Part shown: positions 8,028 to 17,749 of the stretch, piece by piece
Layout of the letters: the number at the start of each line of letters is the position of its first letter
Numbering within the stretch: the stretch's first letter is position 1
DNA from: a virus
Taxonomy: Duplodnaviria > Heunggongvirae > Uroviricota > Caudoviricetes
DNA: 64,000 nt
Virus record (IMG/VR): IMGVR_UViG_2913177423_000001
Span: 19,415-83,414 of that record
Strand: one strand, 5' to 3'
Notes under the pieces: generated by a model
Database searches by the model: none
What the model was told of the DNA's origin: nothing
What the model saw: the letters and a program-made list of their open reading frames with translations, nothing else
Made by a program: the position numbers and the translations under genes

Positions 8028-9388
8028 GCCTGGTTAATTGGGAAGAGCACCGCGCCAAATTTATAGCGTTGCGTGAAGAAAAAGGGATCACCGTAAAGGA
8101 ATACTGCGAGCAACACGACCTTAGCTTCAATACCGCCAGAAAGCATCTCAATATGAAAAAAAATGAGGTGCGGTCGCAGGTGAAGACTACAAAAAAAAGC
8201 ACCAAATCACCTGAAAAAAAACGGGCAGGAAGAGCAAAAAAAAGGCCAGAAGAGGGTACAGAAACAACAAAATTTACAGAAACTGACAATTCACAGAGCG
8301 GAAGTTCTTTCCGGAGCATGCCGAGAAAGAAAACTTCGGATCATAAAAATAACGACAATAATAACAATGAGATAAAAGAATCTGTCAGGAGATCATTGCG
8401 CGAAAAAATGGCGAAAATGATCCCCGCCGAAGATAAATGCGCCTCAAAAACCGAGGGATCTTCAGCAATGATCCCTGGCGGTGCTGTGCAGCGTGCCACG
8501 TTGCCCACTACGAGTGTGGCTCGCGACATGATGAAGAACGGCGCAGAAGAGCACCTGCGGTTAGCAATTCAAATGGCGCAAGAACGCGCACTTCAGTACC
8601 AAAGCATTGTTGATCAGGAGGCCGAACGCCTACAGGCGGAGATAGACGCCCTGGGTGATGAACAGCCAGAAGGAATGCACCCTGGGCAGCGACTTCTCGG
8701 TCTAATCAGTGACGCGGCCTACTACATGAACGATTTTATCAGTAGGTTGGCAGCGATATATCAGTCCGAACAAAAGCTGCGACAGGGTGATGAAAAACTT
8801 CGTCAGGGTGCTCGCCAGCAAGCATTCAGAGAGGCCGAGGCCAGAGAAAAACTCGAATTAGCACGCCTACAGGCCGAACAGCGCGGCAAAGAGATTGAAT
8901 ATCGAATTGGCGCTGACGCACGCGCAGCCAGAGTTATCGCCGCCGCTATACGTATGCGTGAGCGCGAGGAACTGGACGATATCGGTGTTGCTGAATACAT
9001 CGAGCGTCAGGGTGTCAGTGTCCCGGCTATCCTCGCGGCGCGCGCGGCAAAAGCTATCGATCTTCTCGAACCGCCAGTTTCTGACATCAATGATGTTGAT
9101 GATGAACAGCTGGACAAAGAGGCAAGGGAGTATGCATTGCTTCAGGCAAACCATTCTCAATGGCTGGCAGAGCGCCGGGCAGATGTGGCTACCATTGTTG
9201 AAGACCTGGGGTGCGGAGATTACGACAGCAATGGCGAGCGTAAGGCTGGGGAATTCGAGGCCAACGACGAAGAGTTAGATATTGACCCTTCGGCAACGGC
9301 TGAAATTTACGGTGATTATGATGCATCAGACGTAGGGTATGACGCCGGAGATGATGATATCGCGATAGAACCTCCGGAGGACGATTAA
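8024..9388 (+). CDS. pacA: terminase small subunit (PacA-like, N-terminal HTH DNA-binding)
   Basis: 454-aa ORF coupled to large terminase (stop/start overlap at 9388); N-terminal HTH-like segment, acidic C-terminus. Confidence 0.65.
   Translation: MSLVNWEEHRAKFIALREEKGITVKEYCEQHDLSFNTARKHLNMKKNEVRSQVKTTKKSTKSPEKKRAGRAKKRPEEGTETTKFTETDNSQSGSSFRSMPRKKTSDHKNNDNNNNEIKESVRRSLREKMAKMIPAEDKCASKTEGSSAMIPGGAVQRATLPTTSVARDMMKNGAEEHLRLAIQMAQERALQYQSIVDQEAERLQAEIDALGDEQPEGMHPGQRLLGLISDAAYYMNDFISRLAAIYQSEQKLRQGDEKLRQGARQQAFREAEAREKLELARLQAEQRGKEIEYRIGADARAARVIAAAIRMREREELDDIGVAEYIERQGVSVPAILAARAAKAIDLLEPPVSDINDVDDEQLDKEAREYALLQANHSQWLAERRADVATIVEDLGCGDYDSNGERKAGEFEANDEELDIDPSATAEIYGDYDASDVGYDAGDDDIAIEPPEDD
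8339..8473. promoter_or_regulatory. candidate pac (packaging initiation) site: cluster of five GATC sites
   Basis: GATC at 8339, 8391, 8419, 8457, 8470 within 135 bp inside pacA-like gene; P1 pac is a Dam-site cluster within pacA. Confidence 0.35.
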
Positions 9389-10896
9389 TGGCTGGCGGGC
9401 GCAAGATTAAATGCGTCACCAGCGATCCACGCTGGCGCGATTGGGTAATCAAATACCGCTACAACTTTACCAAGGCTGTTATTGATATTTTTGGATTGTT
9501 TCCCTCACCTCAGCAGCAGGAGATTATCCAGTCCGTACAGCAAAAAGGGAGCAGAACCACTGTTACCTCTGGTCACGGTACAGGGAAATCGTCGTTAACG
9601 GCTATGTTGTTGCTGATTTATTTGATTCTGTTCCCCGATGCCCGTGTCATCATTGTTGCTAACAAGATAGGCCAGGTTAAAACAGGCGTATTCAAATACG
9701 TTAAACAGTATTGGGCGAATGCAGTTAAGCGTCACGGGTGGTTACAGACCTATTTTGTCCTGTCTGACACCATGTTTTATGAACGTTCCCGCAAAGGGAT
9801 CTGGGAAGTTCTCTGCAAAGGTTATCGACTCGGTAACGAAGAAGCACTGGCGGGGGAGCACGCGGCACATTTGCTTCTAATTCTGGATGAAGCATCAGGT
9901 ATATCTGATAAAGCGATCGGCGTAATGACTGGCGCTCTGACTGAAGAAGATAACCGAATGTTGATGCTATCCCAGCCAACAAGGCCAAGTGGTTATTTCT
10001 ACGATTCGCACCATTCTCAAGCTAAAACCCCAGACAACCCGAAAGGGATCTGGACAGCAATTGTTCTTAACTCAGAAGAATCACCGTTCGTCACACCACA
10101 ATTCATCAGGCAGAAACTCCTGGAATATGGCGGTCGCGATTCTATTGAGTACATGGTTAAGGTGCTTGGTCAGTTCCCTCGGGAGATTAACGGCTATTTG
10201 CTTGGTCGTGATGAATGCGATCGCGCAGCGCGGCGCAAGGTGTTGTTGGAGAAAAACTGGGGATGGGTGGCAACAGCTGACGTTGGTAACGGGCGAGACA
10301 AGTCAGTTCTTAATATCTGTAAAGTGTCTGGTCACCGGGAAAAGCGGCGTGTTGTTAACTTTAAGATAATGGAAATGCCAGGGACTATGGACCCGCTGGC
10401 TTTTGCTGACTTTATATACAACGAATGCACGCCGGATAAATACCCGAATATTACAATCGCGGTTGACGCTGATGGTTTTGGTTCAGATACCTGTGCGCAG
10501 TTGGTGCGCCGTGGTGCTAATCCGGTACGTATTCGGTGGGGGAAACCCATGTTTTCGAACAAAGACAAGGAGCGTTTTGTTAACCAGCGTGCCTACGCAA
10601 ATATTATGGCTCGTGATGCCATAAAGTCAGGCCGTATGCGTATAGACAGTGACCCTAAAACGGCAGAGCAAGCGTCAAAAATCCCTTTTTTACTGAATGA
10701 AGAAGGGAAGATGGCGATGATGCGCAAAGAGCACATGCGGCAAAAGCTAAACATCAAATCGCCTGACCGATGGGATACCTACTGCTTCACTATGCTGGTG
10801 GACTATGTGCCTGCAAATGAAGATATCGGTGCGGAAATGGCTACCTTCCGCGACCAGGTTCTTGCAGACATAGAAATGCCGGATCTGGATATATAA
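9388..10896 (+). CDS. pacB: terminase large subunit (PacB-like)
   Basis: Walker A GHGTGKSS, Walker B LLLILDEASG, C-terminal nuclease-like AVDADGFG. Confidence 0.85.
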   Translation: MAGGRKIKCVTSDPRWRDWVIKYRYNFTKAVIDIFGLFPSPQQQEIIQSVQQKGSRTTVTSGHGTGKSSLTAMLLLIYLILFPDARVIIVANKIGQVKTGVFKYVKQYWANAVKRHGWLQTYFVLSDTMFYERSRKGIWEVLCKGYRLGNEEALAGEHAAHLLLILDEASGISDKAIGVMTGALTEEDNRMLMLSQPTRPSGYFYDSHHSQAKTPDNPKGIWTAIVLNSEESPFVTPQFIRQKLLEYGGRDSIEYMVKVLGQFPREINGYLLGRDECDRAARRKVLLEKNWGWVATADVGNGRDKSVLNICKVSGHREKRRVVNFKIMEMPGTMDPLAFADFIYNECTPDKYPNITIAVDADGFGSDTCAQLVRRGANPVRIRWGKPMFSNKDKERFVNQRAYANIMARDAIKSGRMRIDSDPKTAEQASKIPFLLNEEGKMAMMRKEHMRQKLNIKSPDRWDTYCFTMLVDYVPANEDIGAEMATFRDQVLADIEMPDLDI

Positions 10897-10921: not shown

Positions 10922-11959
10922 TTACCAGAGTTTGGCGGCGCGCTGTGTTTGGGAGAAAGTGAACCCGTAACGTTCTTCTATGGTTTTACCGTATCTTTTA
11001 CGGGCATCTGTCAGTTTTATGCCCGTAAGGTCATCTCCGGACATCATCATTACGTCTATTAACTCCAGATCCATTTTATTCAGTCTCGCCATTGCTTCGC
11101 GCGCAGTTTGTATTTTACGCTCAATGATATGGCGAATAGCCGGATCGGCTTCTTCAAGCATTTTGGTCGATTTGTTCTTTAAGCTCTCACTGCGGATATC
11201 GATGTTCCGCAAGATGTATGACTTCGCAACATAGCTTGGTTGGTGCTTCTCCAGATCGCGAACGCGATAAAGACTAAAATCACCAATCAGGCCACAAGGT
11301 ATCGACTCGACCCCAGAATAAATAGTAATGCTGCGACGTTCGCCGACATTATTAACAACGGGTACTGTGGTATCCGGAAGTTTTGCGAAAACTAAGGCGC
11401 CATGTGCGCCGACCCTGAATCGTGACAGAGTATTGCTGTCTTCGATGTTTGTTGTCAGCACGACATCTGTATATCCCTCTTTGCGCGCCCGGTAAATTTC
11501 ACCTTCAGGTTCCGCCGCAAAAAAGCGGCGCTCTTCTTCAAGCGCCCCAACAATTTGTGAAAAAATCTTGTTTTTCAGGCTCTTCTTAATAATTGCGTCA
11601 TACTTTTTGAGCAAATTTTCGCGTGTAAATGAGCGAGTAGTAGTCGCGCTTTGCACAACAATATGCGTGCTTTGATTCGTGTCCTCTATGATGATTGGGA
11701 TCGGAGAATATACAGACTCAACAATGTTAGACGCTTTGCCGTCGGCATTACGGCACAAGTCAACAAAGGCTTTCCATTCTGCGAGGCACTTTTCAGCTTC
11801 TTCTAGTACATTCTGGTCATGCGTTAGTGCAACGTGGCGGAATTCCTCGCCAGCATAACTGGTATCATGGAAAACAGAGTTTGCGACCACCAGCTCTTTC
11901 CACCGTTCAGCGGTTTGCAGGAACCGTTTGTACTCTTTCTCGATCGACTTCTTACTCAT
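10922..11959 (-). CDS. putative master immunity repressor (C1 analogue by synteny; no sequence-level match claimed)
   Basis: 345-aa ORF divergent from recombinase and convergent with pacB as P1 c1; operator motif copies directly upstream. Confidence 0.45.
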   Translation of the reverse strand: MSKKSIEKEYKRFLQTAERWKELVVANSVFHDTSYAGEEFRHVALTHDQNVLEEAEKCLAEWKAFVDLCRNADGKASNIVESVYSPIPIIIEDTNQSTHIVVQSATTTRSFTRENLLKKYDAIIKKSLKNKIFSQIVGALEEERRFFAAEPEGEIYRARKEGYTDVVLTTNIEDSNTLSRFRVGAHGALVFAKLPDTTVPVVNNVGERRSITIYSGVESIPCGLIGDFSLYRVRDLEKHQPSYVAKSYILRNIDIRSESLKNKSTKMLEEADPAIRHIIERKIQTAREAMARLNKMDLELIDVMMMSGDDLTGIKLTDARKRYGKTIEERYGFTFSQTQRAAKLW

Positions 11960-12152: not shown

Positions 12153-12184
12153 TAATTTTCTAACTTTAGATAATTGGCATTATT
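12153..12184. other. rox: rox/lox-like recombination site (14-bp inverted arms, 4-bp spacer)
   Basis: TAACTTTAGATAAT-TGGC-ATTATTTAAAGTTA; arms are inverted repeats with one mismatch; 160 bp upstream of recombinase gene. Confidence 0.7.
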
Positions 12185-12344
12185 TAAAGTTAGTATATAA
12201 TAATGATCAAACGATCAGTATTGACAGACTCAAAAAGTCATGGTTCGAATCAAGGGCTTAAATTTTAAATTCTCACGGATAACTAGCCTGTCATTTTTTG
12301 TTTTTTCGCGTAGCGACACCAATTTATAGAGGTGAAATGATTAC

Positions 12345-13373
12345 ATGAGTAAACTTATTATCTCCGGTAATCCTGGCATGTTTCTTCGTGATATTGGTGC
12401 TGAGTACCAGGAAGCCGCCAAAAATTTCATGCAGTTCCTTAATGACCAGGGCGCTTACTCACCTAATACACTGCGCGATCTGCGCCTGGTCTTTCACTCC
12501 TGGGCGCGTTGGTGCCACGCTCGTGGTCTTGCGTGGTTTCCGATCTCCCCGGAAGCTGCCCGCGAATACCTGCTTCAACTGCATGATGCGGATCTGGCTT
12601 CAACCACCATTGAAAAGCATTACGCCATGCTCAATATGCTGTTGTCACAATGCGGACTGCCGCAACTCTCTGATGACAAAAGCGTATCCCTGGCGATGCG
12701 GCGCATCCGGCGCGAAGCTGCAACCGAAAAAGGCGAACGCACAGGCCAGGCTATACCGTTGCGGTGGAATGATCTGAAATGGCTCGACGTGTTGCTGTCC
12801 CGTTCCGAGCGGCTGGTGGACCTGCGCAACCGGGCGTTTCTCTTCGTGGCATACAATACCCTGTTGCGTATGGCTGAAATGTCCCGCGTGCGTGTTCGCG
12901 ATCTGGAACAGACTGGTGACACTGTAACGCTTCACGTATCCCACACCAAAACCATCACGACCGCCGCCGGACTTGATAAGGTGCTCTCCCTCCGGACAAC
13001 TGCGGTTCTCAATGACTGGCTGGACGAGTCCGGACTACGTGATCACCCGGATGCGATACTTTTCCCGCCAGTACACCGGAGCAACAAAGCGCGGATCACC
13101 ACCACGCCACTAACCGCGCCCGCGATGGAGAAGATTTTCAGTGACGCCTGGGCGCTGCTGGGTAAGAGTGATGCCACCCCAAATAAAGGCCGTTACCGGA
13201 CGTGGACAGGCCACAGTGCGCGTGTTGGTGCCGCCATAGATATGGCTGAAAAACAGGTGTCTTTGGTTGAAATTATGCAGGAAGGTACATGGAAGAAGCC
13301 CGAAACACTGATGCGTTATCTTCGTCGTGGCGGTGTGACAGCAGGTGCCAATAGCCGCCTCATGGATTCATGA
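12345..13373 (+). CDS. dre: Cre-family tyrosine site-specific recombinase (Dre-like)
   Basis: 342 aa; blocks SWARWCHARGLAWFP, VSLAMRRIRRE, AYNTLLRMAEMSRVRVRDL, WTGHSARVGAAIDMA align with P1 Cre; cognate site upstream. Confidence 0.9.
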   Translation: MSKLIISGNPGMFLRDIGAEYQEAAKNFMQFLNDQGAYSPNTLRDLRLVFHSWARWCHARGLAWFPISPEAAREYLLQLHDADLASTTIEKHYAMLNMLLSQCGLPQLSDDKSVSLAMRRIRREAATEKGERTGQAIPLRWNDLKWLDVLLSRSERLVDLRNRAFLFVAYNTLLRMAEMSRVRVRDLEQTGDTVTLHVSHTKTITTAAGLDKVLSLRTTAVLNDWLDESGLRDHPDAILFPPVHRSNKARITTTPLTAPAMEKIFSDAWALLGKSDATPNKGRYRTWTGHSARVGAAIDMAEKQVSLVEIMQEGTWKKPETLMRYLRRGGVTAGANSRLMDS

Positions 13374-13792: not shown

Positions 13793-14265
13793 AAAATTAT
13801 TACCCATCTCTGAATTGTTACCCGTCTTCGTATCCGGAATTGTCCGGGAAGCTGTTAGCTCTATTGGCTAAATCACCAACTGAATGGTTTAGGCCAGTCG
13901 TTATCAATCCGCACTTCCTGGATTACGGATCTGTTCGCACTCGTAACGAACTCAAAAACCTGCTGGCGCATGGATTCATTCGACATCGCGCCGGGAAAGG
14001 CTATCAGTTAGCGATTGCGCCAGAAGAGGCCGTGCGGCTATTCGCATATCGTGACAGCCAGACAAAAGCGCGGGTAATAGCTCAAATACTTCATAACGGC
14101 AGCACCTATGCCCGCCAGTTTGGCGGCGACACGTCGCAGTTCTTGCGGGCTGTGCGATCGCTGGAAGAACAAGGAGTTATTGAAAGTTCCTGTCTTCCTG
14201 TTCCTACCGTTCCACATATCAAACGTCGGGTTTACACCTTCACGCAGAGAGCAAAAAAACAATGA
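13789..14265 (+). CDS. hypothetical protein, possible winged-helix DNA-binding
   Basis: ATG overlapping upstream stop; segment LAIAPEEAVRLFAYRDSQTKARVIAQIL is wHTH-like (weak). Confidence 0.5.
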   Translation: MKNYYPSLNCYPSSYPELSGKLLALLAKSPTEWFRPVVINPHFLDYGSVRTRNELKNLLAHGFIRHRAGKGYQLAIAPEEAVRLFAYRDSQTKARVIAQILHNGSTYARQFGGDTSQFLRAVRSLEEQGVIESSCLPVPTVPHIKRRVYTFTQRAKKQ

Positions 14266-14756
14266 TTTACGTAAAAGTGAAACGCCTACATCCGGCAGCG
14301 AAACTTCCAGCTTATGCCACTGCCGGATCGGCGGCGATGGATTTTGAGGCTGTTGAAATAACACCGTGCGTCGATAGCAATGGTGCAATTTCCTCAAGCT
14401 GGTGGGTGCATACCGGGCTGGCTATGGAGATCCCGCCCGGCTGGTGTCTGAAACTCTATCCGCGTTCCGGATTGGGCTGCAAAAAACATACTCGCCTGGC
14501 TAACTGTGTAGGAATTATCGACTCCGATTATCGCGGTGAAATCATGGCAAAACTGATTACTGATCCCGGCGGTGAAGGCGTTTGCCTCAAGCCAGGAATG
14601 GCGGTCATGCAAGGCATTTTTGAGCGTGTTGAACAAGTCTCTCTTGTCGAAGTTGAGGAACTCAACGAAACGGAACGTGGTGCTGGTGGCTTTGGTAGCA
14701 CATCAGAAGGCCGCTTTGAAATTAAGCGTTCACCGCTTCAGTACGAAAAGTTATAA
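14262..14756 (+). CDS. dut: dUTP diphosphatase (dUTPase)
   Basis: dUTPase motifs PRSGL, GIIDSDYRGE, RGAGGFGSTSE. Confidence 0.85.
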   Translation: MIYVKVKRLHPAAKLPAYATAGSAAMDFEAVEITPCVDSNGAISSSWWVHTGLAMEIPPGWCLKLYPRSGLGCKKHTRLANCVGIIDSDYRGEIMAKLITDPGGEGVCLKPGMAVMQGIFERVEQVSLVEVEELNETERGAGGFGSTSEGRFEIKRSPLQYEKL

Positions 14757-14770
14757 GCAGAGGGACAACT

Positions 14771-15457
14771 ATGAAGGAAAAGCTTTTGAAGACGCTCCCT
14801 GAGTACAAATACCACGGAACCATTCGCGCATCGAAAATCAAAAAGATCAAGCCTATTGGCGGATTAATTCCTCTCTGGGGTGATATTGAGGTCACCGAAC
14901 CAAAAGGGGTAACGATTCGTGTTGATTTAATGTTTTTACAAAAATACCGACCACAAATTGGCGGGTATTTGGTCGTTCATGAGGACGGATATTTGTCCTA
15001 TTTATCAGAAAAAACATTTAAAGAGGGCTTTAGTCGAATTGATGACATCTCAGAAAATGAAACAACAGTCATCATTGCCGATGACAAAGGCATGATGATT
15101 AATCTTGCCGGGATCGTATCTATTTATGCTGATGACATCACTAACCAACAAGAAGAAATCGACCTTGAGGCAGCCGACTTTTCTGACGCGCTGATGTGGC
15201 TGAAGGATGGCAAGAAAGTTGCTCGACGCGGGTGGAACGGCGAAAACCAATTCTGCTGGCTGGTTCCTGACAAACAGGGCGCTTCAAGACTAACCCCTAT
15301 AAAACATGCCGCAAGCGGAGAGCTTGAAATCAATTTCGGCTCGCCCCTTGCTCCTTATGGAGAGCATTTCACTTTGAAAAATGCACAAGGTGTCTTTCTT
15401 CCGTGGCTACCTTCTGTCGGCGACCTGCTGGCATGTGACTGGTTTGTAGTGGAGTGA
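14771..15457 (+). CDS. DUF2829 (Tad2-like) domain protein with 130-aa N-terminal extension
   Basis: C-terminal DFSDALMWLKDGKKVARRGWNG ... VFLPWLPSVGDLLACDWFVVE matches DUF2829 signature as recalled. Confidence 0.6.
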   Translation: MKEKLLKTLPEYKYHGTIRASKIKKIKPIGGLIPLWGDIEVTEPKGVTIRVDLMFLQKYRPQIGGYLVVHEDGYLSYLSEKTFKEGFSRIDDISENETTVIIADDKGMMINLAGIVSIYADDITNQQEEIDLEAADFSDALMWLKDGKKVARRGWNGENQFCWLVPDKQGASRLTPIKHAASGELEINFGSPLAPYGEHFTLKNAQGVFLPWLPSVGDLLACDWFVVE

Positions 15458-15463
15458 TTTGAC

Positions 15464-16237
15464 ATGGAAAGCACCAAAACAACTCAATACCGCTTGCGTA
15501 ATGGCCTGCTGGTGGCTGTTAACGCCGACATGTCACTGCCGTTTGACACGATAGAACGCACTATCATGACGTATCTCGGCTTTAATGAAGAGCTGAATGA
15601 AGAGCATGGCGTAGCTATATGGAGTGATGCAGACAGCGGCGTTCGTCGTTACATCACTGCCAGAGGCAAAGACTACTCTCTGGAAGAACTGTTTACCCTT
15701 GCGCAGTCTTTCGAATGTGTAGCATTGGACCTGTTTAATGATCCTGCTATAGCGCAACGACTTATCCGCGAGCTTGGGCTGTCGGTTACCCCAATTATCT
15801 TTAAAAATGGCAGCCTGACTGGCACATGGCGCGTAGAGCGCATCTCAAACTACCTTCCATATAACCGCCAGTTAAACGGGGTAATTTCCGGCGTCAATCA
15901 GCCTGTAGCGTGTGAAAACGCAAACCTGGTTGTCGCTGTTTTGGCAACTGCATGTCGCGTTATTGGTTTGACTAAACAGGCATTTATCCATTTTCCCAAT
16001 GGTGCAGAAGGTGGCGTAGAAATTATCGCGTGTGATTTCGAATTTACCTGGATGCTTCGTGAATATCTGGACCGAACAGTGTTCCGCGCCGAAGAACTGG
16101 ATCTGTATATCACGTCAACGATTCCTGATGATGTGCGAGCTGAAGCAATCGCTACAGCCAGAGCGAAATGCCGTGCGTCGATTGCAGAACAAGCCAAAGA
16201 AGAAGTTACAGTTAAGGAAGTGGCAGATGGTAACTAA
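15464..16237 (+). CDS. hypothetical protein (257 aa), translationally coupled to terminase paralog
   Basis: stop overlaps downstream start; no recognised domain. Confidence 0.55.
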   Translation: MESTKTTQYRLRNGLLVAVNADMSLPFDTIERTIMTYLGFNEELNEEHGVAIWSDADSGVRRYITARGKDYSLEELFTLAQSFECVALDLFNDPAIAQRLIRELGLSVTPIIFKNGSLTGTWRVERISNYLPYNRQLNGVISGVNQPVACENANLVVAVLATACRVIGLTKQAFIHFPNGAEGGVEIIACDFEFTWMLREYLDRTVFRAEELDLYITSTIPDDVRAEAIATARAKCRASIAEQAKEEVTVKEVADGN

Positions 16238-17321
16238 GAGCAATATTTATAAAGATCCGCGCTGGCTGTCGCTGGTGGAGAAATATAAAGACAATTGGGT
16301 ACTGGCAGCAAAAGAATTGTTTGATATTGATTTAAGCCACCAGCAACAACAAATTGTTGAAGCTATACAGCCCAATAATGCAAAAGCTACTGTCACCACT
16401 CCGCATGGGATCGGACGACCGCAAGTGCTTGCTGTTATTAGTACCCTTTATACGATTATGTATCCTGATTCCCGGACAGTAATTGTTTATCCAAAATCAA
16501 ATGCTTGCAAAAGAGGAATTGTTGCATATGTGTGGCAATGTTGGGAGGCATTGCTGAAAAAACAACCTTTTATCATTGAGTATTTTAAGGTCGGTGATAG
16601 CGGTCTGATGTTCAATGAATTTTGGGGAATGTGCTTTTGTAACTACCGCCTTAACTATGAAGATAGCATTGCAGGTCACTACGCCGACCATCTTTTATTC
16701 ATTATTGTGGATTCCGCACATATCAGCGATCGGGCATACAGTATTGTGTGGGCAAGCATGACTAGTGGTGATTCACGCATATTGCTCACTTCAATTCCGT
16801 CACCAGAGGAAATAGGCTTTTTTTATGATTCACATCATGGACGTGCTTTAGCTGAAGATAATCCGAGTGGTGTCTATAAAGCCATTAAGCTGAGTGCTGA
16901 GGATTCACCATTTATTACCCAAGAATATCTTGATCATTTTGCCGAAAGGTATGGCGGGCGAAATAGTGATGACTATCGTCGTATGATTCTTGGTGAGTTC
17001 CCTGGTATTAGGGAGGCTGTTCTTGAATCAGATATGCCGAAGACAATGCGCTTTTCGATGCCTGATGGTAGTGAATGGACAATGCCATTACGAGTGATAG
17101 CCCGGCATCATGCGCAGCACCACGCCAAAAAACATAGCGTCACGACATTAGAATGGTTGAAATCGCACACTATTCCACTCTTCACTGCAGATCACAATGC
17201 TATCGTTGAGTGGGCCAAAACAATTCCGTGGGAGCATGTCGCTGAATACGCTCACATGCTAAAACCGCCGAAAGACAGACACGAAATTAGCTGGCTGACA
17301 GCCGAAAAAATCATTGAATGA
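16227..17321 (+). CDS. degenerate terminase large-subunit ATPase-domain paralog
   Basis: homologous to PacB-like N-terminus (DPRW..QQQ..; YFYDSHH..DNP.G..SPF..YGGR) but Walker A is PHGIGRPQ, Walker B is FIIVDSAH (no Asp-Glu), no nuclease domain; start moved to ATG 16227. Confidence 0.6.
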   Translation: MVTKSNIYKDPRWLSLVEKYKDNWVLAAKELFDIDLSHQQQQIVEAIQPNNAKATVTTPHGIGRPQVLAVISTLYTIMYPDSRTVIVYPKSNACKRGIVAYVWQCWEALLKKQPFIIEYFKVGDSGLMFNEFWGMCFCNYRLNYEDSIAGHYADHLLFIIVDSAHISDRAYSIVWASMTSGDSRILLTSIPSPEEIGFFYDSHHGRALAEDNPSGVYKAIKLSAEDSPFITQEYLDHFAERYGGRNSDDYRRMILGEFPGIREAVLESDMPKTMRFSMPDGSEWTMPLRVIARHHAQHHAKKHSVTTLEWLKSHTIPLFTADHNAIVEWAKTIPWEHVAEYAHMLKPPKDRHEISWLTAEKIIE

Positions 17322-17330
17322 TATCAACAA

Positions 17331-17358
17331 AAAGCCCGCCTGGTCTGGCGGGCTTCTT
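17331..17358. terminator. bidirectional intrinsic terminator
   Basis: hairpin AAAGCCCGCC-TGGTCT-GGCGGGCTT plus T-run, between convergent genes. Confidence 0.7.
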
Positions 17359-17359
17359 T

Positions 17360-17749
17360 TCATAACACAGGGCAATCGTCAAATTCCCCACTCCGGGCAT
17401 CATTGATGATGTGGGTGATCACGCCAAACACAGCATTGCTGCCTGTATATCCATCGTCATCCTTCGGCAACGCTTCCTTCTTGCCGGATCTTAAATCCTC
17501 CAGGTGCTGATGCGGATGCTTCCGGTATCTCTTTACGCGATATTCCCCCTCTATAGCACATACAAGCAGCGAACCATCAACTGGAGTGAGTGAGGAATCG
17601 ACCACAAGCAACGCTCCTTGCAATATGCCTTCGCGGTAATGGCTGTCAGCCGCCCGCATGAAGTAGGTGGCTGATGGATGCCTGATTAGGTGCTGATCAA
17701 GAGATATGCGGCGTTCAGCGTAATCCGCCGCAGGAGAAGGGAAGCCCAT
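17360..17749 (-). CDS. humD: UmuD-prime homolog (HumD-like, S24 LexA/UmuD family)
   Basis: 129 aa; UmuD-like core GSLLVCAIEGEYRVKRY ... AVFGVITHII; LexA box directly upstream. Confidence 0.8.
   Translation of the reverse strand: MGFPSPAADYAERRISLDQHLIRHPSATYFMRAADSHYREGILQGALLVVDSSLTPVDGSLLVCAIEGEYRVKRYRKHPHQHLEDLRSGKKEALPKDDDGYTGSNAVFGVITHIINDARSGEFDDCPVL

What the first reader, a model, noticed from the sequence alone, without database searches (positions are those of the whole stretch)
16227..17321. Catalytically degenerate paralog of the large terminase ATPase domain
ORF 16227-17321 aligns along the whole ATPase domain with the PacB-like terminase at 9388-10896, but Walker A is PHGIGRPQ instead of GHGTGKSS, Walker B is FIIVDSAH instead of LLILDEAS, and the nuclease domain is replaced by an unrelated His-rich C-terminus. 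The upstream 257-aa ORF is translationally coupled, mimicking pacA-pacB order. A pseudo-terminase could act as a packaging decoy, a regulator, or a fossil duplication.
Basis: seen in the sequence. Interest (0 to 1): 0.75.

Follow-up and report, generated by a model that had tools for sequence, protein, structure and literature searches.

The report
Dead terminase-ATPase paralog in P1-like phage-plasmid
A D6/P1-like phage-plasmid carries a well-conserved second copy of the ATPase half of its DNA-packaging enzyme that has lost every catalytic motif and is fused to a small uncharacterised phage domain. It is an optional gene made before packaging starts, so it probably acts by binding something rather than by packaging DNA.

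Summary
ORF 16227-17321 (364 aa) matches the ATPase domain of the window's PacB (9388-10896) at 37% identity over 258 aa (E 7e-61). It folds confidently as a TerL ATPase domain and lacks Walker A, Walker B and the nuclease domain.

It is not a fossil. dN/dS is 0.05-0.3, and full-length copies sit in about 163 of 753 P1-like plasmids in PLSDB. It belongs to a clade of dead, mostly ATPase-only proteins (about 250-270 aa) found in diverse P1-like phage-plasmids.

The C-terminal 103 aa belong to a family of at least 956 clusters, about 100 aa each in the 120 listed. These proteins have no Pfam match or known fold, and sit near replication genes in the six loci inspected.

The "pacA-pacB mimic" idea fails. 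The upstream gene is IsaA, which is unrelated to PacA, and IsaA and the pseudo-terminase each occur without the other.

The gene ends early operons: cre-dut-Tad2-like-isaA in the window, and the C1-operated ssb operon in P1 variants. Its ATPase-like domain differs sharply between plasmids (53% identity) whose PacA and PacB are 92-98% identical.

My best reading is an accessory, binding-only TerL mimic used in phage-host or phage-phage conflict. The mechanism is unproven.

The parts
16227..17321 (+). Pseudo-terminase gene (pTerL), 364 aa. It is a dead PacB-type ATPase domain fused to a small uncharacterised domain.
16227..17009 (+). N-domain (res 1-261) with a TerL ATPase fold. AF2 pLDDT is above 90 for res 11-260.
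   Evidence: model. (Foldseek top hits: Sf6 gp2, P74-26, T4 gp17, HK97 and D6E terminases).
16401..16424 (+). Walker A remnant PHGIGRPQ. The first Gly is Pro, the Lys is Arg, and the Ser/Thr is Pro.
16698..16721 (+). Walker B remnant FIIVDSAH. The Asp is Val and the catalytic Glu is Asp.
16785..17009 (+). Lid and C-motif region (res 187-261), including FYDSHH, SP, YGG and LGxFP. It is the best-conserved part, both against PacB (45%) and within the dead clade (57-73%). The SQPT coupling motif is degenerate here (SIPS).
17010..17318 (+). C-domain (res 262-364). It is a divergent member of a large family of phage proteins, about 100 aa and standalone in all but two of the 120 listed. The fold is a beta-hairpin plus four helices.
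17103..17135 (+). His-rich helix RHHAQHHAKKH. The His positions are conserved in the 52%-identical P1-variant homologue, but the standalone family has R..A..Y..E here.
15464..16237 (+). isaA homologue (257 aa, acidic, function unknown). It overlaps pTerL by 11 nt.
14771..15457 (+). Protein with a Tad2-like (DUF2829, PF11195) domain, directly upstream of isaA.
   Evidence: 74 bits against a cutoff of 25..
12174..12201 (+). Sigma-70-like promoter (TTGGCA-16-TATAAT, 11/12) upstream of cre. It is the likely start of the seven-gene operon that ends with pTerL.
   Evidence: This is a consensus match only.
12345..13373 (+). Cre-like tyrosine recombinase, the first gene of the operon.
17332..17355 (+). 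Intrinsic-terminator-like hairpin (9-bp stem, 7 GC pairs, T tail) 11 nt after the pTerL stop. It lies between pTerL and the convergent humD.
9388..10896 (+). pacB, the intact large terminase (GHGTGKSS, ILDEAS, nuclease domain). It is the parent paralog.
8024..9388 (+). pacA (terminase small subunit, phrog_1711). It is unrelated to IsaA.

Best explanation
SHOWN. The gene encodes a pseudo-enzyme. It is an anciently duplicated PacB-type large-terminase ATPase domain that keeps the fold and the lid subdomain. It has lost Walker A, Walker B, the catalytic Glu, the SQPT coupling motif and a conserved Arg, and it has no nuclease domain. It is fused to a divergent copy of a widespread uncharacterised phage domain of about 100 aa. 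It is under purifying selection. It is dispensable, because P1 and D6 lack it. It is present in about a fifth of P1-like plasmids. It sits last in operons that carry early or accessory genes rather than the late pacAB genes.

INFERRED. It cannot hydrolyse ATP or cut DNA, so it works by binding. Because it is made before or independently of PacA and PacB, I think it acts as a molecular stand-in for the terminase ATPase domain in a conflict. The most likely version is that it engages host sensors that recognise the terminase ATPase fold (Avs1-3 or Upx type) without activating them. Less likely, it poisons the packaging motor or small terminase of rival phages. The variable C-terminal add-on would tune or anchor this activity.
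For: Homology and dead motifs.

Fold.

Purifying selection in both domains (omega 0.05-0.3).

A clade of dead, mostly ATPase-only homologues, encoded as complete genes (checked for P0007, P0009, P0012, P0013, P0014 and P0016), mostly on contigs with P1-type C1 repressor, Cre-type integrase or pacAB-sized genes.

Patchy distribution: absent from P1, where IS1 plus isaB replace it exactly after the isaA stop, and absent from D6. 163 of 753 PLSDB plasmids carry it. The region is a published hypervariable hotspot (PMC6906374, PMC9603915), and isaA is non-essential (PMC10695390).

Neighbours: a Tad2-like gene two genes upstream, and the dar anti-restriction operon next door in P1 variants.

Early-type operons: a promoter before cre and a terminator after pTerL in the window. 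A C1 operator before ssb and a terminator after pTerL in P1 variants.

Allele turnover: the ATPase-like domain is 53% identical (dS 1.5) between plasmids whose PacA, PacB, IsaA and pTerL C-domain are 92-98% identical (dS 0.2). Tad2-like is the only other hyperdivergent gene in the locus.

Charge: the N-domain has net charge -6 against +9 for PacB's ATPase domain, which argues against DNA binding.

The terminase ATPase domain alone suffices to trigger the Upx immune sensors, and Avs2 binds mainly that domain. T4 has a TerL-ATPase-only paralog, vs.8, that triggers EcAvs2 (bioRxiv 10.64898/2026.04.30.721860).
Against: There is no direct evidence for any binding partner.

Ligand binding normally activates Avs sensors, and vs.8 is a trigger rather than an inhibitor. 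A mimic could therefore be harmful unless it binds non-productively.

Avs2 and Avs3 contact the nucleotide in the terminase active site, which this protein probably lacks. It may simply be invisible to them.

PADLOC gave no hit, and I had no anti-defence library to search.

The neighbours also include DNA-metabolism genes (ssb, cre, dut, ref), which fits a replication or recombination role equally well.

The allele-turnover argument rests on two to three alleles. Operon boundaries are consensus-pattern predictions only.
Confidence: 0.4

Rival explanations
1. It is an accessory factor of the element's own DNA metabolism, made early. The dead ATPase fold and the C-domain would act as a scaffold at replication or recombination intermediates or at DNA ends. 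Examples are helping cyclisation or recombination with Cre, Ref or SSB, or timing the switch from replication to packaging.
For: It is co-operonic with cre and dut in the window and with ssb in P1 variants. A dead homologue is translationally coupled to a Ref (RecA-dependent nuclease) gene. Standalone C-domain homologues sit after dnaB-type helicase genes in lambdoid prophages and in phage JK004. In Xanthomonas phages the domain forms the C-terminus of a DUF1351 protein next to an Erf recombinase. Dead homologues recur across deeply diverged P1-like elements.
Against: The lab phages P1 and D6 lack the gene and grow normally. The N-domain lost the positive charge of PacB's ATPase domain (-6 against +9). 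The C-domain lost 18 of the family's 38 near-invariant residues, most of them polar or charged. The sharp allele divergence beside conserved flanks is unusual for a housekeeping accessory.
Confidence: 0.25
2. It is a dominant-negative packaging inhibitor. It would co-assemble with PacB-type motors, or titrate PacA or the portal of competing P1-like phages. This would resemble satellite proteins that block helper small terminase, and would give the carrier an edge in co-infection or superinfection.
For: It is derived from PacB, and the lid subdomain is its best-conserved part. In other terminases the lid mediates subunit contacts; that is general knowledge and was not tested here. It has no catalytic residues or nuclease, so it is a natural poison subunit. 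Its alleles vary independently of the resident PacA and PacB. In the window it lies in the cre operon, which in P1 is expressed in lysogens (my own recollection of P1 biology, not checked here).
Against: It is only 37% identical to its own PacB, and interface retention is untested. In P1 variants it lies behind a C1 operator, so it would be off in lysogens. It would risk poisoning the carrier's own packaging. Early rather than late expression fits poorly.
Confidence: 0.2
3. It is a decaying remnant of a pacB duplication with no function.
For: All catalytic motifs are lost. The gene is dispensable and is often absent.
Against: dN/dS is 0.05-0.3. The 364-366-aa ORFs are intact in all eight copies inspected, and the other roughly 155 full-length PLSDB matches run uninterrupted over at least 80% of the protein. 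The AF2 fold is confident. Dead homologues are conserved across lineages at 30-40% identity. The RBS and the coupling to isaA are conserved.
Confidence: 0.03

Closest known systems
PacB, the large terminase subunit of P1/D6-like phages (TerL ATPase domain)
   Same: There is clear sequence homology across the whole ATPase domain: 37% to the window's own PacB, E 7e-61. The predicted fold is the same. The Q-motif glutamines, the P-loop glycines and the lid motifs (FYDSHH, SP, YGG, LGxFP) are conserved.
   Different: It lacks the Walker A Lys and Ser, the Walker B Asp, an intact catalytic Glu, the SQPT coupling motif and the nuclease domain. It is not next to a small terminase. It lies in early or accessory operons rather than the late pacAB unit. 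It is acidic rather than basic.
T4 vs.8, an uncharacterised paralog of the T4 terminase ATPase domain (bioRxiv 10.64898/2026.04.30.721860)
   Same: Both are phage-encoded paralogs of the resident large terminase that consist of the ATPase domain only, and both have unknown function. This holds for most members of the dead clade (252-268 aa).
   Different: vs.8 is reported to keep conserved Walker A and B motifs and to activate EcAvs2. The clade described here has lost them. The two probably arose from independent duplications, one from a T4-type terminase and one from a PacB-type. That is inference, because I made no direct comparison. The window's member also carries an extra C-domain.
Satellite-encoded packaging-interference proteins (SaPI Ppi, PICI Rpp; recalled from memory)
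   Same: These are non-enzymatic proteins that act on terminase components by binding. They are a possible functional analogy.
   Different: I know of no sequence or fold relationship. They target the helper phage's small terminase and are encoded by satellites rather than by the phage itself. This was not tested here.
Family of uncharacterised ~100-aa phage proteins (standalone in Cronobacter phage JK004 gene_35 and in lambdoid prophages between dnaB/P and ninB; also the C-terminus of the Xanthomonas phage CP2/SAC DUF1351 protein)
   Same: The C-terminal 103 aa align with this family over nearly their whole length (39% to P0070 and to the JK004 protein). They share its hydrophobic core, which includes the invariant W, P, F and A positions.
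   Different: Here the domain is fused rather than standalone. It is neutral (pI 6.9) rather than strongly acidic (family median pI 4.3). It has replaced 18 of 38 near-invariant residues, most of them polar or charged, and has gained a conserved His patch.

Membership tests
Functional large terminase (TerL/PacB) | Sequence homology to the TerL ATPase domain | tested here: met
   BLASTP gives 37% over 258 aa, E 7e-61 against the window's PacB. The nearest intact relatives in a search of 1.84 billion proteins are PacB-like proteins of about 500 aa.
Functional large terminase (TerL/PacB) | ASCE/TerL ATPase fold | tested here: met
   AF2 pLDDT is above 90 for res 11-260. The top 29 Foldseek PDB hits are all large terminases.
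Functional large terminase (TerL/PacB) | Walker A motif GxxxxGK[ST] | tested here: not met
   The motif is PHGIGRPQ. Family members have R, Q, H, E, M, C, T or I at the Lys position. Every intact TerL that covers this column has G-K-[ST], with two single-residue exceptions.
Functional large terminase (TerL/PacB) | Walker B motif hhhhDE with a catalytic Glu | tested here: not met
   The window has IIVD, and relatives have VTE, VMD, VIN, ITD, CPN, VLH, IPD or VPQ. Intact TerLs have DE, rarely EE.
Functional large terminase (TerL/PacB) | C-motif (coupling motif, SQPT) and the conserved Arg after it | tested here: not met
   Q190, T192 and R194 are at least 80% conserved in intact TerLs and are not conserved in the dead clade.
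Functional large terminase (TerL/PacB) | C-terminal RNase H-like nuclease domain | tested here: not met
   The alignment with PacB stops at res 259. The C-domain profile against the TerL profile gives hhalign probability 1.3%. The predicted fold is a beta-hairpin plus helices.
Functional large terminase (TerL/PacB) | Paired with a small terminase gene | tested here: not met
   The upstream IsaA has no similarity to PacA. The IsaA-pTerL pairing is facultative.
TerL-ATPase-only paralogs (T4 vs.8 type) | A separate gene that encodes only a terminase-like ATPase domain, alongside an intact terminase | tested here: met
   The window has intact pacB plus this gene. The clade members whose contigs were inspected are complete genes of 252-266 aa. 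The window's copy adds a 103-aa domain.
TerL-ATPase-only paralogs (T4 vs.8 type) | Conserved Walker A and B motifs, as reported for vs.8 | tested here: not met
   The report on vs.8 is bioRxiv 10.64898/2026.04.30.721860.
TerL-ATPase-only paralogs (T4 vs.8 type) | Direct sequence relationship to vs.8 | not tested
   The vs.8 sequence was not fetched. An independent origin is inferred from the PacB-type affinity.
Uncharacterised ~100-aa phage protein family (C-domain) | Alignment over nearly the whole domain with family members | tested here: met
   phmmer gives E 1e-13 to P0070 over res 267-363. A profile search returns 956 clusters. tblastn hits JK004 and Xanthomonas phages.
Uncharacterised ~100-aa phage protein family (C-domain) | Retention of the family's near-invariant residues and acidic character | tested here: inconclusive
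   20 of 38 near-invariant positions are kept, mostly core W, P, F, A and L. Most polar invariants are replaced. The pI is 6.9 against a family median of 4.3.
Known anti-phage defence systems (PADLOC) | Match to a PADLOC model | tested here: not met
   No hit at E up to 0.1 for pTerL or IsaA.
Anti-defence proteins or immune-sensor decoys | Binds or inhibits a defence protein such as Avs1-3 or Upx | not testable with these tools
   The only support is contextual: the Tad2-like neighbour, the dar operon neighbour, early operons and allele turnover.

The most novel reading that the evidence does not exclude
The dead terminase-ATPase clade is an early-expressed mimic of a conserved viral 'pattern'. 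It would occupy or mis-assemble host receptors that detect the terminase ATPase fold (Avs1-3, Upx) before the real terminase appears late in infection. That would be an anti-defence strategy based on a catalytically silenced copy of the phage's own immune target.
Probability: 0.15. Interest if true: 0.85.

Novelty: new variant of a known kind. Interest (0 to 1): 0.6.

Why it matters
Large terminases are among the most conserved phage proteins, and they are now known to be a main target of bacterial pattern-recognition immunity. This gene is a selected, widespread and catalytically dead copy of the sensed domain. It is carried as optional early cargo by clinically common E. coli and Salmonella phage-plasmids, and it is currently annotated either as 'hypothetical protein' or, wrongly, as 'terminase large subunit'.

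It is therefore a concrete, cheap-to-test candidate for a new class of conflict protein, either an immune decoy or a packaging poison. It also shows what canonical P1 lost to its IS1 insertion. Finally, it links a very large uncharacterised family of small phage proteins to a tractable model system.

Tried and rejected
- Pfam, NCBIfam and PADLOC gave nothing for pTerL or IsaA. PHROGs only places pTerL in phrog_5902, 'unknown function', which PacB also matches.
- A PDB sequence search with pTerL and with an IsaA profile gave only noise.
- IsaA against PacA (BLASTP) and IsaA against the TerL profile (hhalign) showed no relation.
- P1 isaB is not a remnant of pTerL. The homology between P1 and the P1 variant ends exactly at the isaA stop.
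- In the full-length AF2 model the C-domain had low confidence. I refolded it alone with 120 homologues (pLDDT 87). Foldseek against the PDB found no match (best E 0.8). BFVD returned only uncharacterised viral proteins.
- The P1 C1-operator consensus is absent from the window, which is expected for the different D6-type repressor. A P1 late-promoter pattern gave only chance-level hits, none near the gene.
- Literature searches found no description of this gene or of dead terminase paralogs. The word 'decoy' in the 2026 Nature Avs paper refers only to mass-spectrometry databases.
- Monophyly of all the dead sequences is not supported (3 of 100 bootstraps). The core clade gets only 56 of 100.
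Full report
**What the window is.** The region is a D6/P1-like phage-plasmid. The genes run in this order:
- lpa (7635-8027)
- pacA (8024-9388)
- pacB (9388-10896)
- a P7/D6-type C1 repressor (10922-11959, minus strand)
- a Cre-like recombinase (12345-13373)
- two small ORFs
- dUTPase (14262-14756)
- a Tad2-like/DUF2829 protein (14771-15457)
- an isaA homologue (15464-16237)
- the ORF in question (16227-17321)
- a convergent humD/S24 peptidase (17360-17749)

About 90-kb E. coli and Salmonella plasmids carry the same isaA-plus-ORF pair at 94-97% nucleotide identity, annotated 'hypothetical protein' twice.

**Checking the observation.** The ORF starts at an ATG with a good Shine-Dalgarno sequence and overlaps the isaA stop by 11 nt. 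BLASTP against the window's PacB gives 37% identity over 258 aa, E 7e-61, and covers only the ATPase domain. In alignments with relatives, and with about 100 full-length intact terminases from an exhaustive search, Walker A is PHGIGRPQ and Walker B is IIVD. Nearly every intact terminase covering those columns has G-K-[ST] and D/E-E there. AlphaFold2 models residues 11-260 at pLDDT above 90. The best PDB matches are the large terminases of Sf6, P74-26, T4, HK97 and D6E.

**It is one member of a clade of dead terminase ATPase domains.** The exhaustive search found further proteins with the same defects:
- P0007, P0009, P0012, P0013, P0016, P0043, P0052 and P0122 (244-268 aa, ATPase domain only)
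- P0014 (444 aa, with a different C-terminal extension)
- P0004, P0005 and P0006 (366 aa)
- the P1-variant form (364 aa)

Six of them (P0007, P0009, P0012, P0013, P0014 and P0016) were looked up and are complete genes. Most sit on contigs with a P1-type C1 repressor, a Cre-type integrase or pacAB-sized genes. Across this clade the Walker A Ser-Gly-His-x-Thr-x-Lys, the Walker B Asp-Glu, the SQPT coupling motif and the following Arg are all lost. The Q-motif, the structural glycines and the lid motifs (G.FYDSHH, SP, YGG, LG.FP) are kept. The lid region is the most conserved part, at 45% to PacB and 57-73% within the clade. The nucleotide-binding core is the least conserved. That is the reverse of what an active ATPase shows. 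A neighbour-joining tree puts the core dead sequences together next to PacB-like terminases, but support is modest (56 of 100). Two sequences, P0043 and P0122, fall elsewhere, so more than one inactivation event is possible.

**It is not a fossil.** Nei-Gojobori dN/dS is 0.05-0.3 for both domains across eight DNA copies. tblastn of PLSDB finds 753 plasmids with a PacB-type match. Of these, 163 also carry a full-length copy of this protein: 34 of the window type, 10 at 60-80% identity, and the rest of the P1-variant type at about 52%.

Canonical P1 lacks the gene. Its sequence is collinear with IS1-free P1 variants up to the isaA stop. After that point IS1 and the unrelated isaB replace it. D6 also lacks it. 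The gene is therefore selected but dispensable. It lies in a region already described as hypervariable among P1-like plasmids (PMC6906374, PMC9603915), and isaA was scored non-essential in P1 (PMC10695390).

**The C-terminal domain.** Residues 262-364 are unrelated to the nuclease domain. They belong to a family of at least 956 sequence clusters of phage proteins. All but two of the 120 listed are about 100 aa, and they have no Pfam annotation. Members occur in three settings:
- in lambdoid prophages between the dnaB/P genes and ninB
- in Cronobacter phage JK004, downstream of its DnaB-type helicase
- as the C-terminus of a DUF1351 protein next to an Erf recombinase in Xanthomonas phages

Folded with 120 homologues, the domain gives a confident model (pLDDT 87) of a beta-hairpin, four helices and a small sheet. 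The model has no PDB match, and its only BFVD neighbours are uncharacterised viral proteins.

The fused copy is a divergent member. It keeps 20 of the 38 near-invariant positions, mostly the hydrophobic core. It replaces most of the polar and charged ones. The standalone proteins are very acidic (median pI 4.3), whereas this domain is neutral. A close relative, P0007 (75% identical, same locus), lacks the C-domain altogether. P0014 has a different extension. The constant module is therefore the dead ATPase domain.

**The 'pacA-pacB mimic' idea.** IsaA shows no similarity to PacA or to terminases. It has no detectable relatives of known function or structure. IsaA ends the cre operon without a pseudo-terminase in Enterobacter and Klebsiella elements, in D6 and in P1. 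Dead homologues follow a Ref nuclease gene with an overlapping stop and start, follow a radical-SAM gene, or stand alone. The coupling in the window is real, but the resemblance to pacA-pacB is only positional.

**Expression context.** In the window, the genes from cre to the pseudo-terminase are packed with gaps of 75 nt or less. A near-consensus sigma-70 promoter lies upstream of cre, and a strong terminator hairpin lies 11 nt after the stop. In P1 variants the gene closes an ssb-isaA-pTerL unit. A C1 operator with one mismatch sits just before ssb, and a terminator sits right after the gene. Both units are early or lysogenic-type rather than the late, Lpa-dependent pacAB unit. This is an inference from sequence patterns, not from expression data.

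**Allele turnover.** I compared the window with a plasmid carrying the P0004 allele. Protein identities were:

| Protein or domain | Identity |
|---|---|
| PacA | 92% |
| PacB ATPase domain | 96% |
| PacB nuclease domain | 98% |
| IsaA | 95% |
| pTerL C-domain | 96% (dS 0.2) |
| pTerL ATPase-like domain | 53% (dS 1.5) |
| Tad2-like gene | 66% |

The Tad2-like gene is the only other hyperdivergent gene in the locus. The ATPase-like domain is thus exchanged as a cassette, independently of the element's own terminase. That argues against a tightly co-evolving partner of PacA or PacB. It is the pattern usually seen for genes engaged in conflicts. The N-domain is also acidic (net -6) where PacB's ATPase domain is basic (+9), which argues against retained DNA binding.

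**Interpretation.** What is shown is a conserved, dispensable pseudo-ATPase derived from a PacB-type terminase. It is modular and sits in early accessory operons next to a Tad2-like gene, or next to the dar anti-restriction operon in P1 variants.

What is inferred is that it works by binding. My preferred mechanism (about 0.4, including its sub-variants) is a terminase-ATPase mimic used in conflict. The terminase ATPase domain alone is enough to trigger the Upx sensors, and it forms the main surface that Avs2 binds. T4 has an ATPase-only terminase paralog, vs.8, with intact motifs that triggers EcAvs2 (bioRxiv 10.64898/2026.04.30.721860). An early-made, nucleotide-free version could engage such sensors unproductively, or it might simply have escaped them.

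The rivals are an accessory role in the element's own replication or recombination (about 0.25) and dominant-negative interference with the packaging of rival phages (about 0.2). A functionless remnant is effectively excluded. None of the mechanisms could be tested with the tools available. The decisive experiments are listed under next steps.

**Novelty.** I found no description of this gene or of catalytically dead terminase paralogs in the searchable literature. Databases call it 'hypothetical protein' or, misleadingly, 'terminase large subunit'. It is best classed as a new variant of a known kind: a terminase-derived pseudo-enzyme. Its nearest described analogue is the catalytically intact T4 vs.8.

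Noticed in passing
window 6559-7134 (+) and 14771-15457 (+): The window holds two separate genes with a Tad2-like (Thoeris anti-defence 2, PF11195) domain, one upstream of lpa/pacA and one upstream of isaA. The second is hyperdivergent between otherwise near-identical plasmids (60-72% protein identity, against 89-98% for most neighbours).
   Followed up: partly
L004 (phage P1 NC_005856) 5525-7133, compared with L002 4995-6089: In canonical P1 the homology to IS1-free P1 variants stops exactly at the isaA stop codon. IS1 plus the unrelated isaB occupy the place of the pseudo-terminase gene, so the reference P1 genome has lost this gene through an IS1-associated replacement.
   Followed up: yes
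window 17322-17360, compared with L018 7137-7738, L020 4884-5485 and D6 (L001 4052-4653): The phd-doc toxin-antitoxin pair lies between this locus and humD in D6 and several close relatives. It is missing in the window, where humD follows directly after the terminator.
   Followed up: no
window 16032-16226: The reading frame of the pseudo-terminase stays open for 65 codons upstream of the real ATG, overlapping isaA in another frame. A metagenome record (P0001, 438 aa) annotates a similarly long N-terminally extended form as 'Terminase large subunit'. It is probably a chance open frame and an annotation artefact.
   Followed up: partly
L008 7336-8792; L011 7027-8795: In other P1-like contigs a dead terminase-ATPase gene is translationally coupled to a Ref (RecA-dependent nuclease) gene, or directly follows a radical-SAM gene. 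The upstream partner therefore varies while the dead ATPase domain stays constant.
   Followed up: partly
proteins P0156-P0272 (e.g. L024 5001-5315, L027 5001-5300, L005 5001-5297): This is a very large family (at least 956 clusters) of strongly acidic phage proteins of about 100 aa (median pI 4.3) with about 38 near-invariant residues and no Pfam model or known fold. In the prophage and phage loci inspected they sit downstream of dnaB-type helicase genes, in lambdoid prophages ahead of the nin genes. It looks like a good target for characterisation in its own right.
   Followed up: partly
proteins P0039, P0047, P0069, P0077, P0134 (metagenomic terminases): Several intact PacB-like terminases (646-863 aa) carry a large insertion inside the Walker A motif, which reads ...GH | insert | HNTGKS. 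It looks like an intein. This is only a side observation from the alignment.
   Followed up: no
window 10922-11959 (-): The C1-type repressor is 345 aa, against 283 aa as I recall for P1 C1. The P1 operator consensus ATTGCTCTAATAAATTT has no match within 3 mismatches anywhere in the window, so this element must use a different operator sequence.
   Followed up: partly
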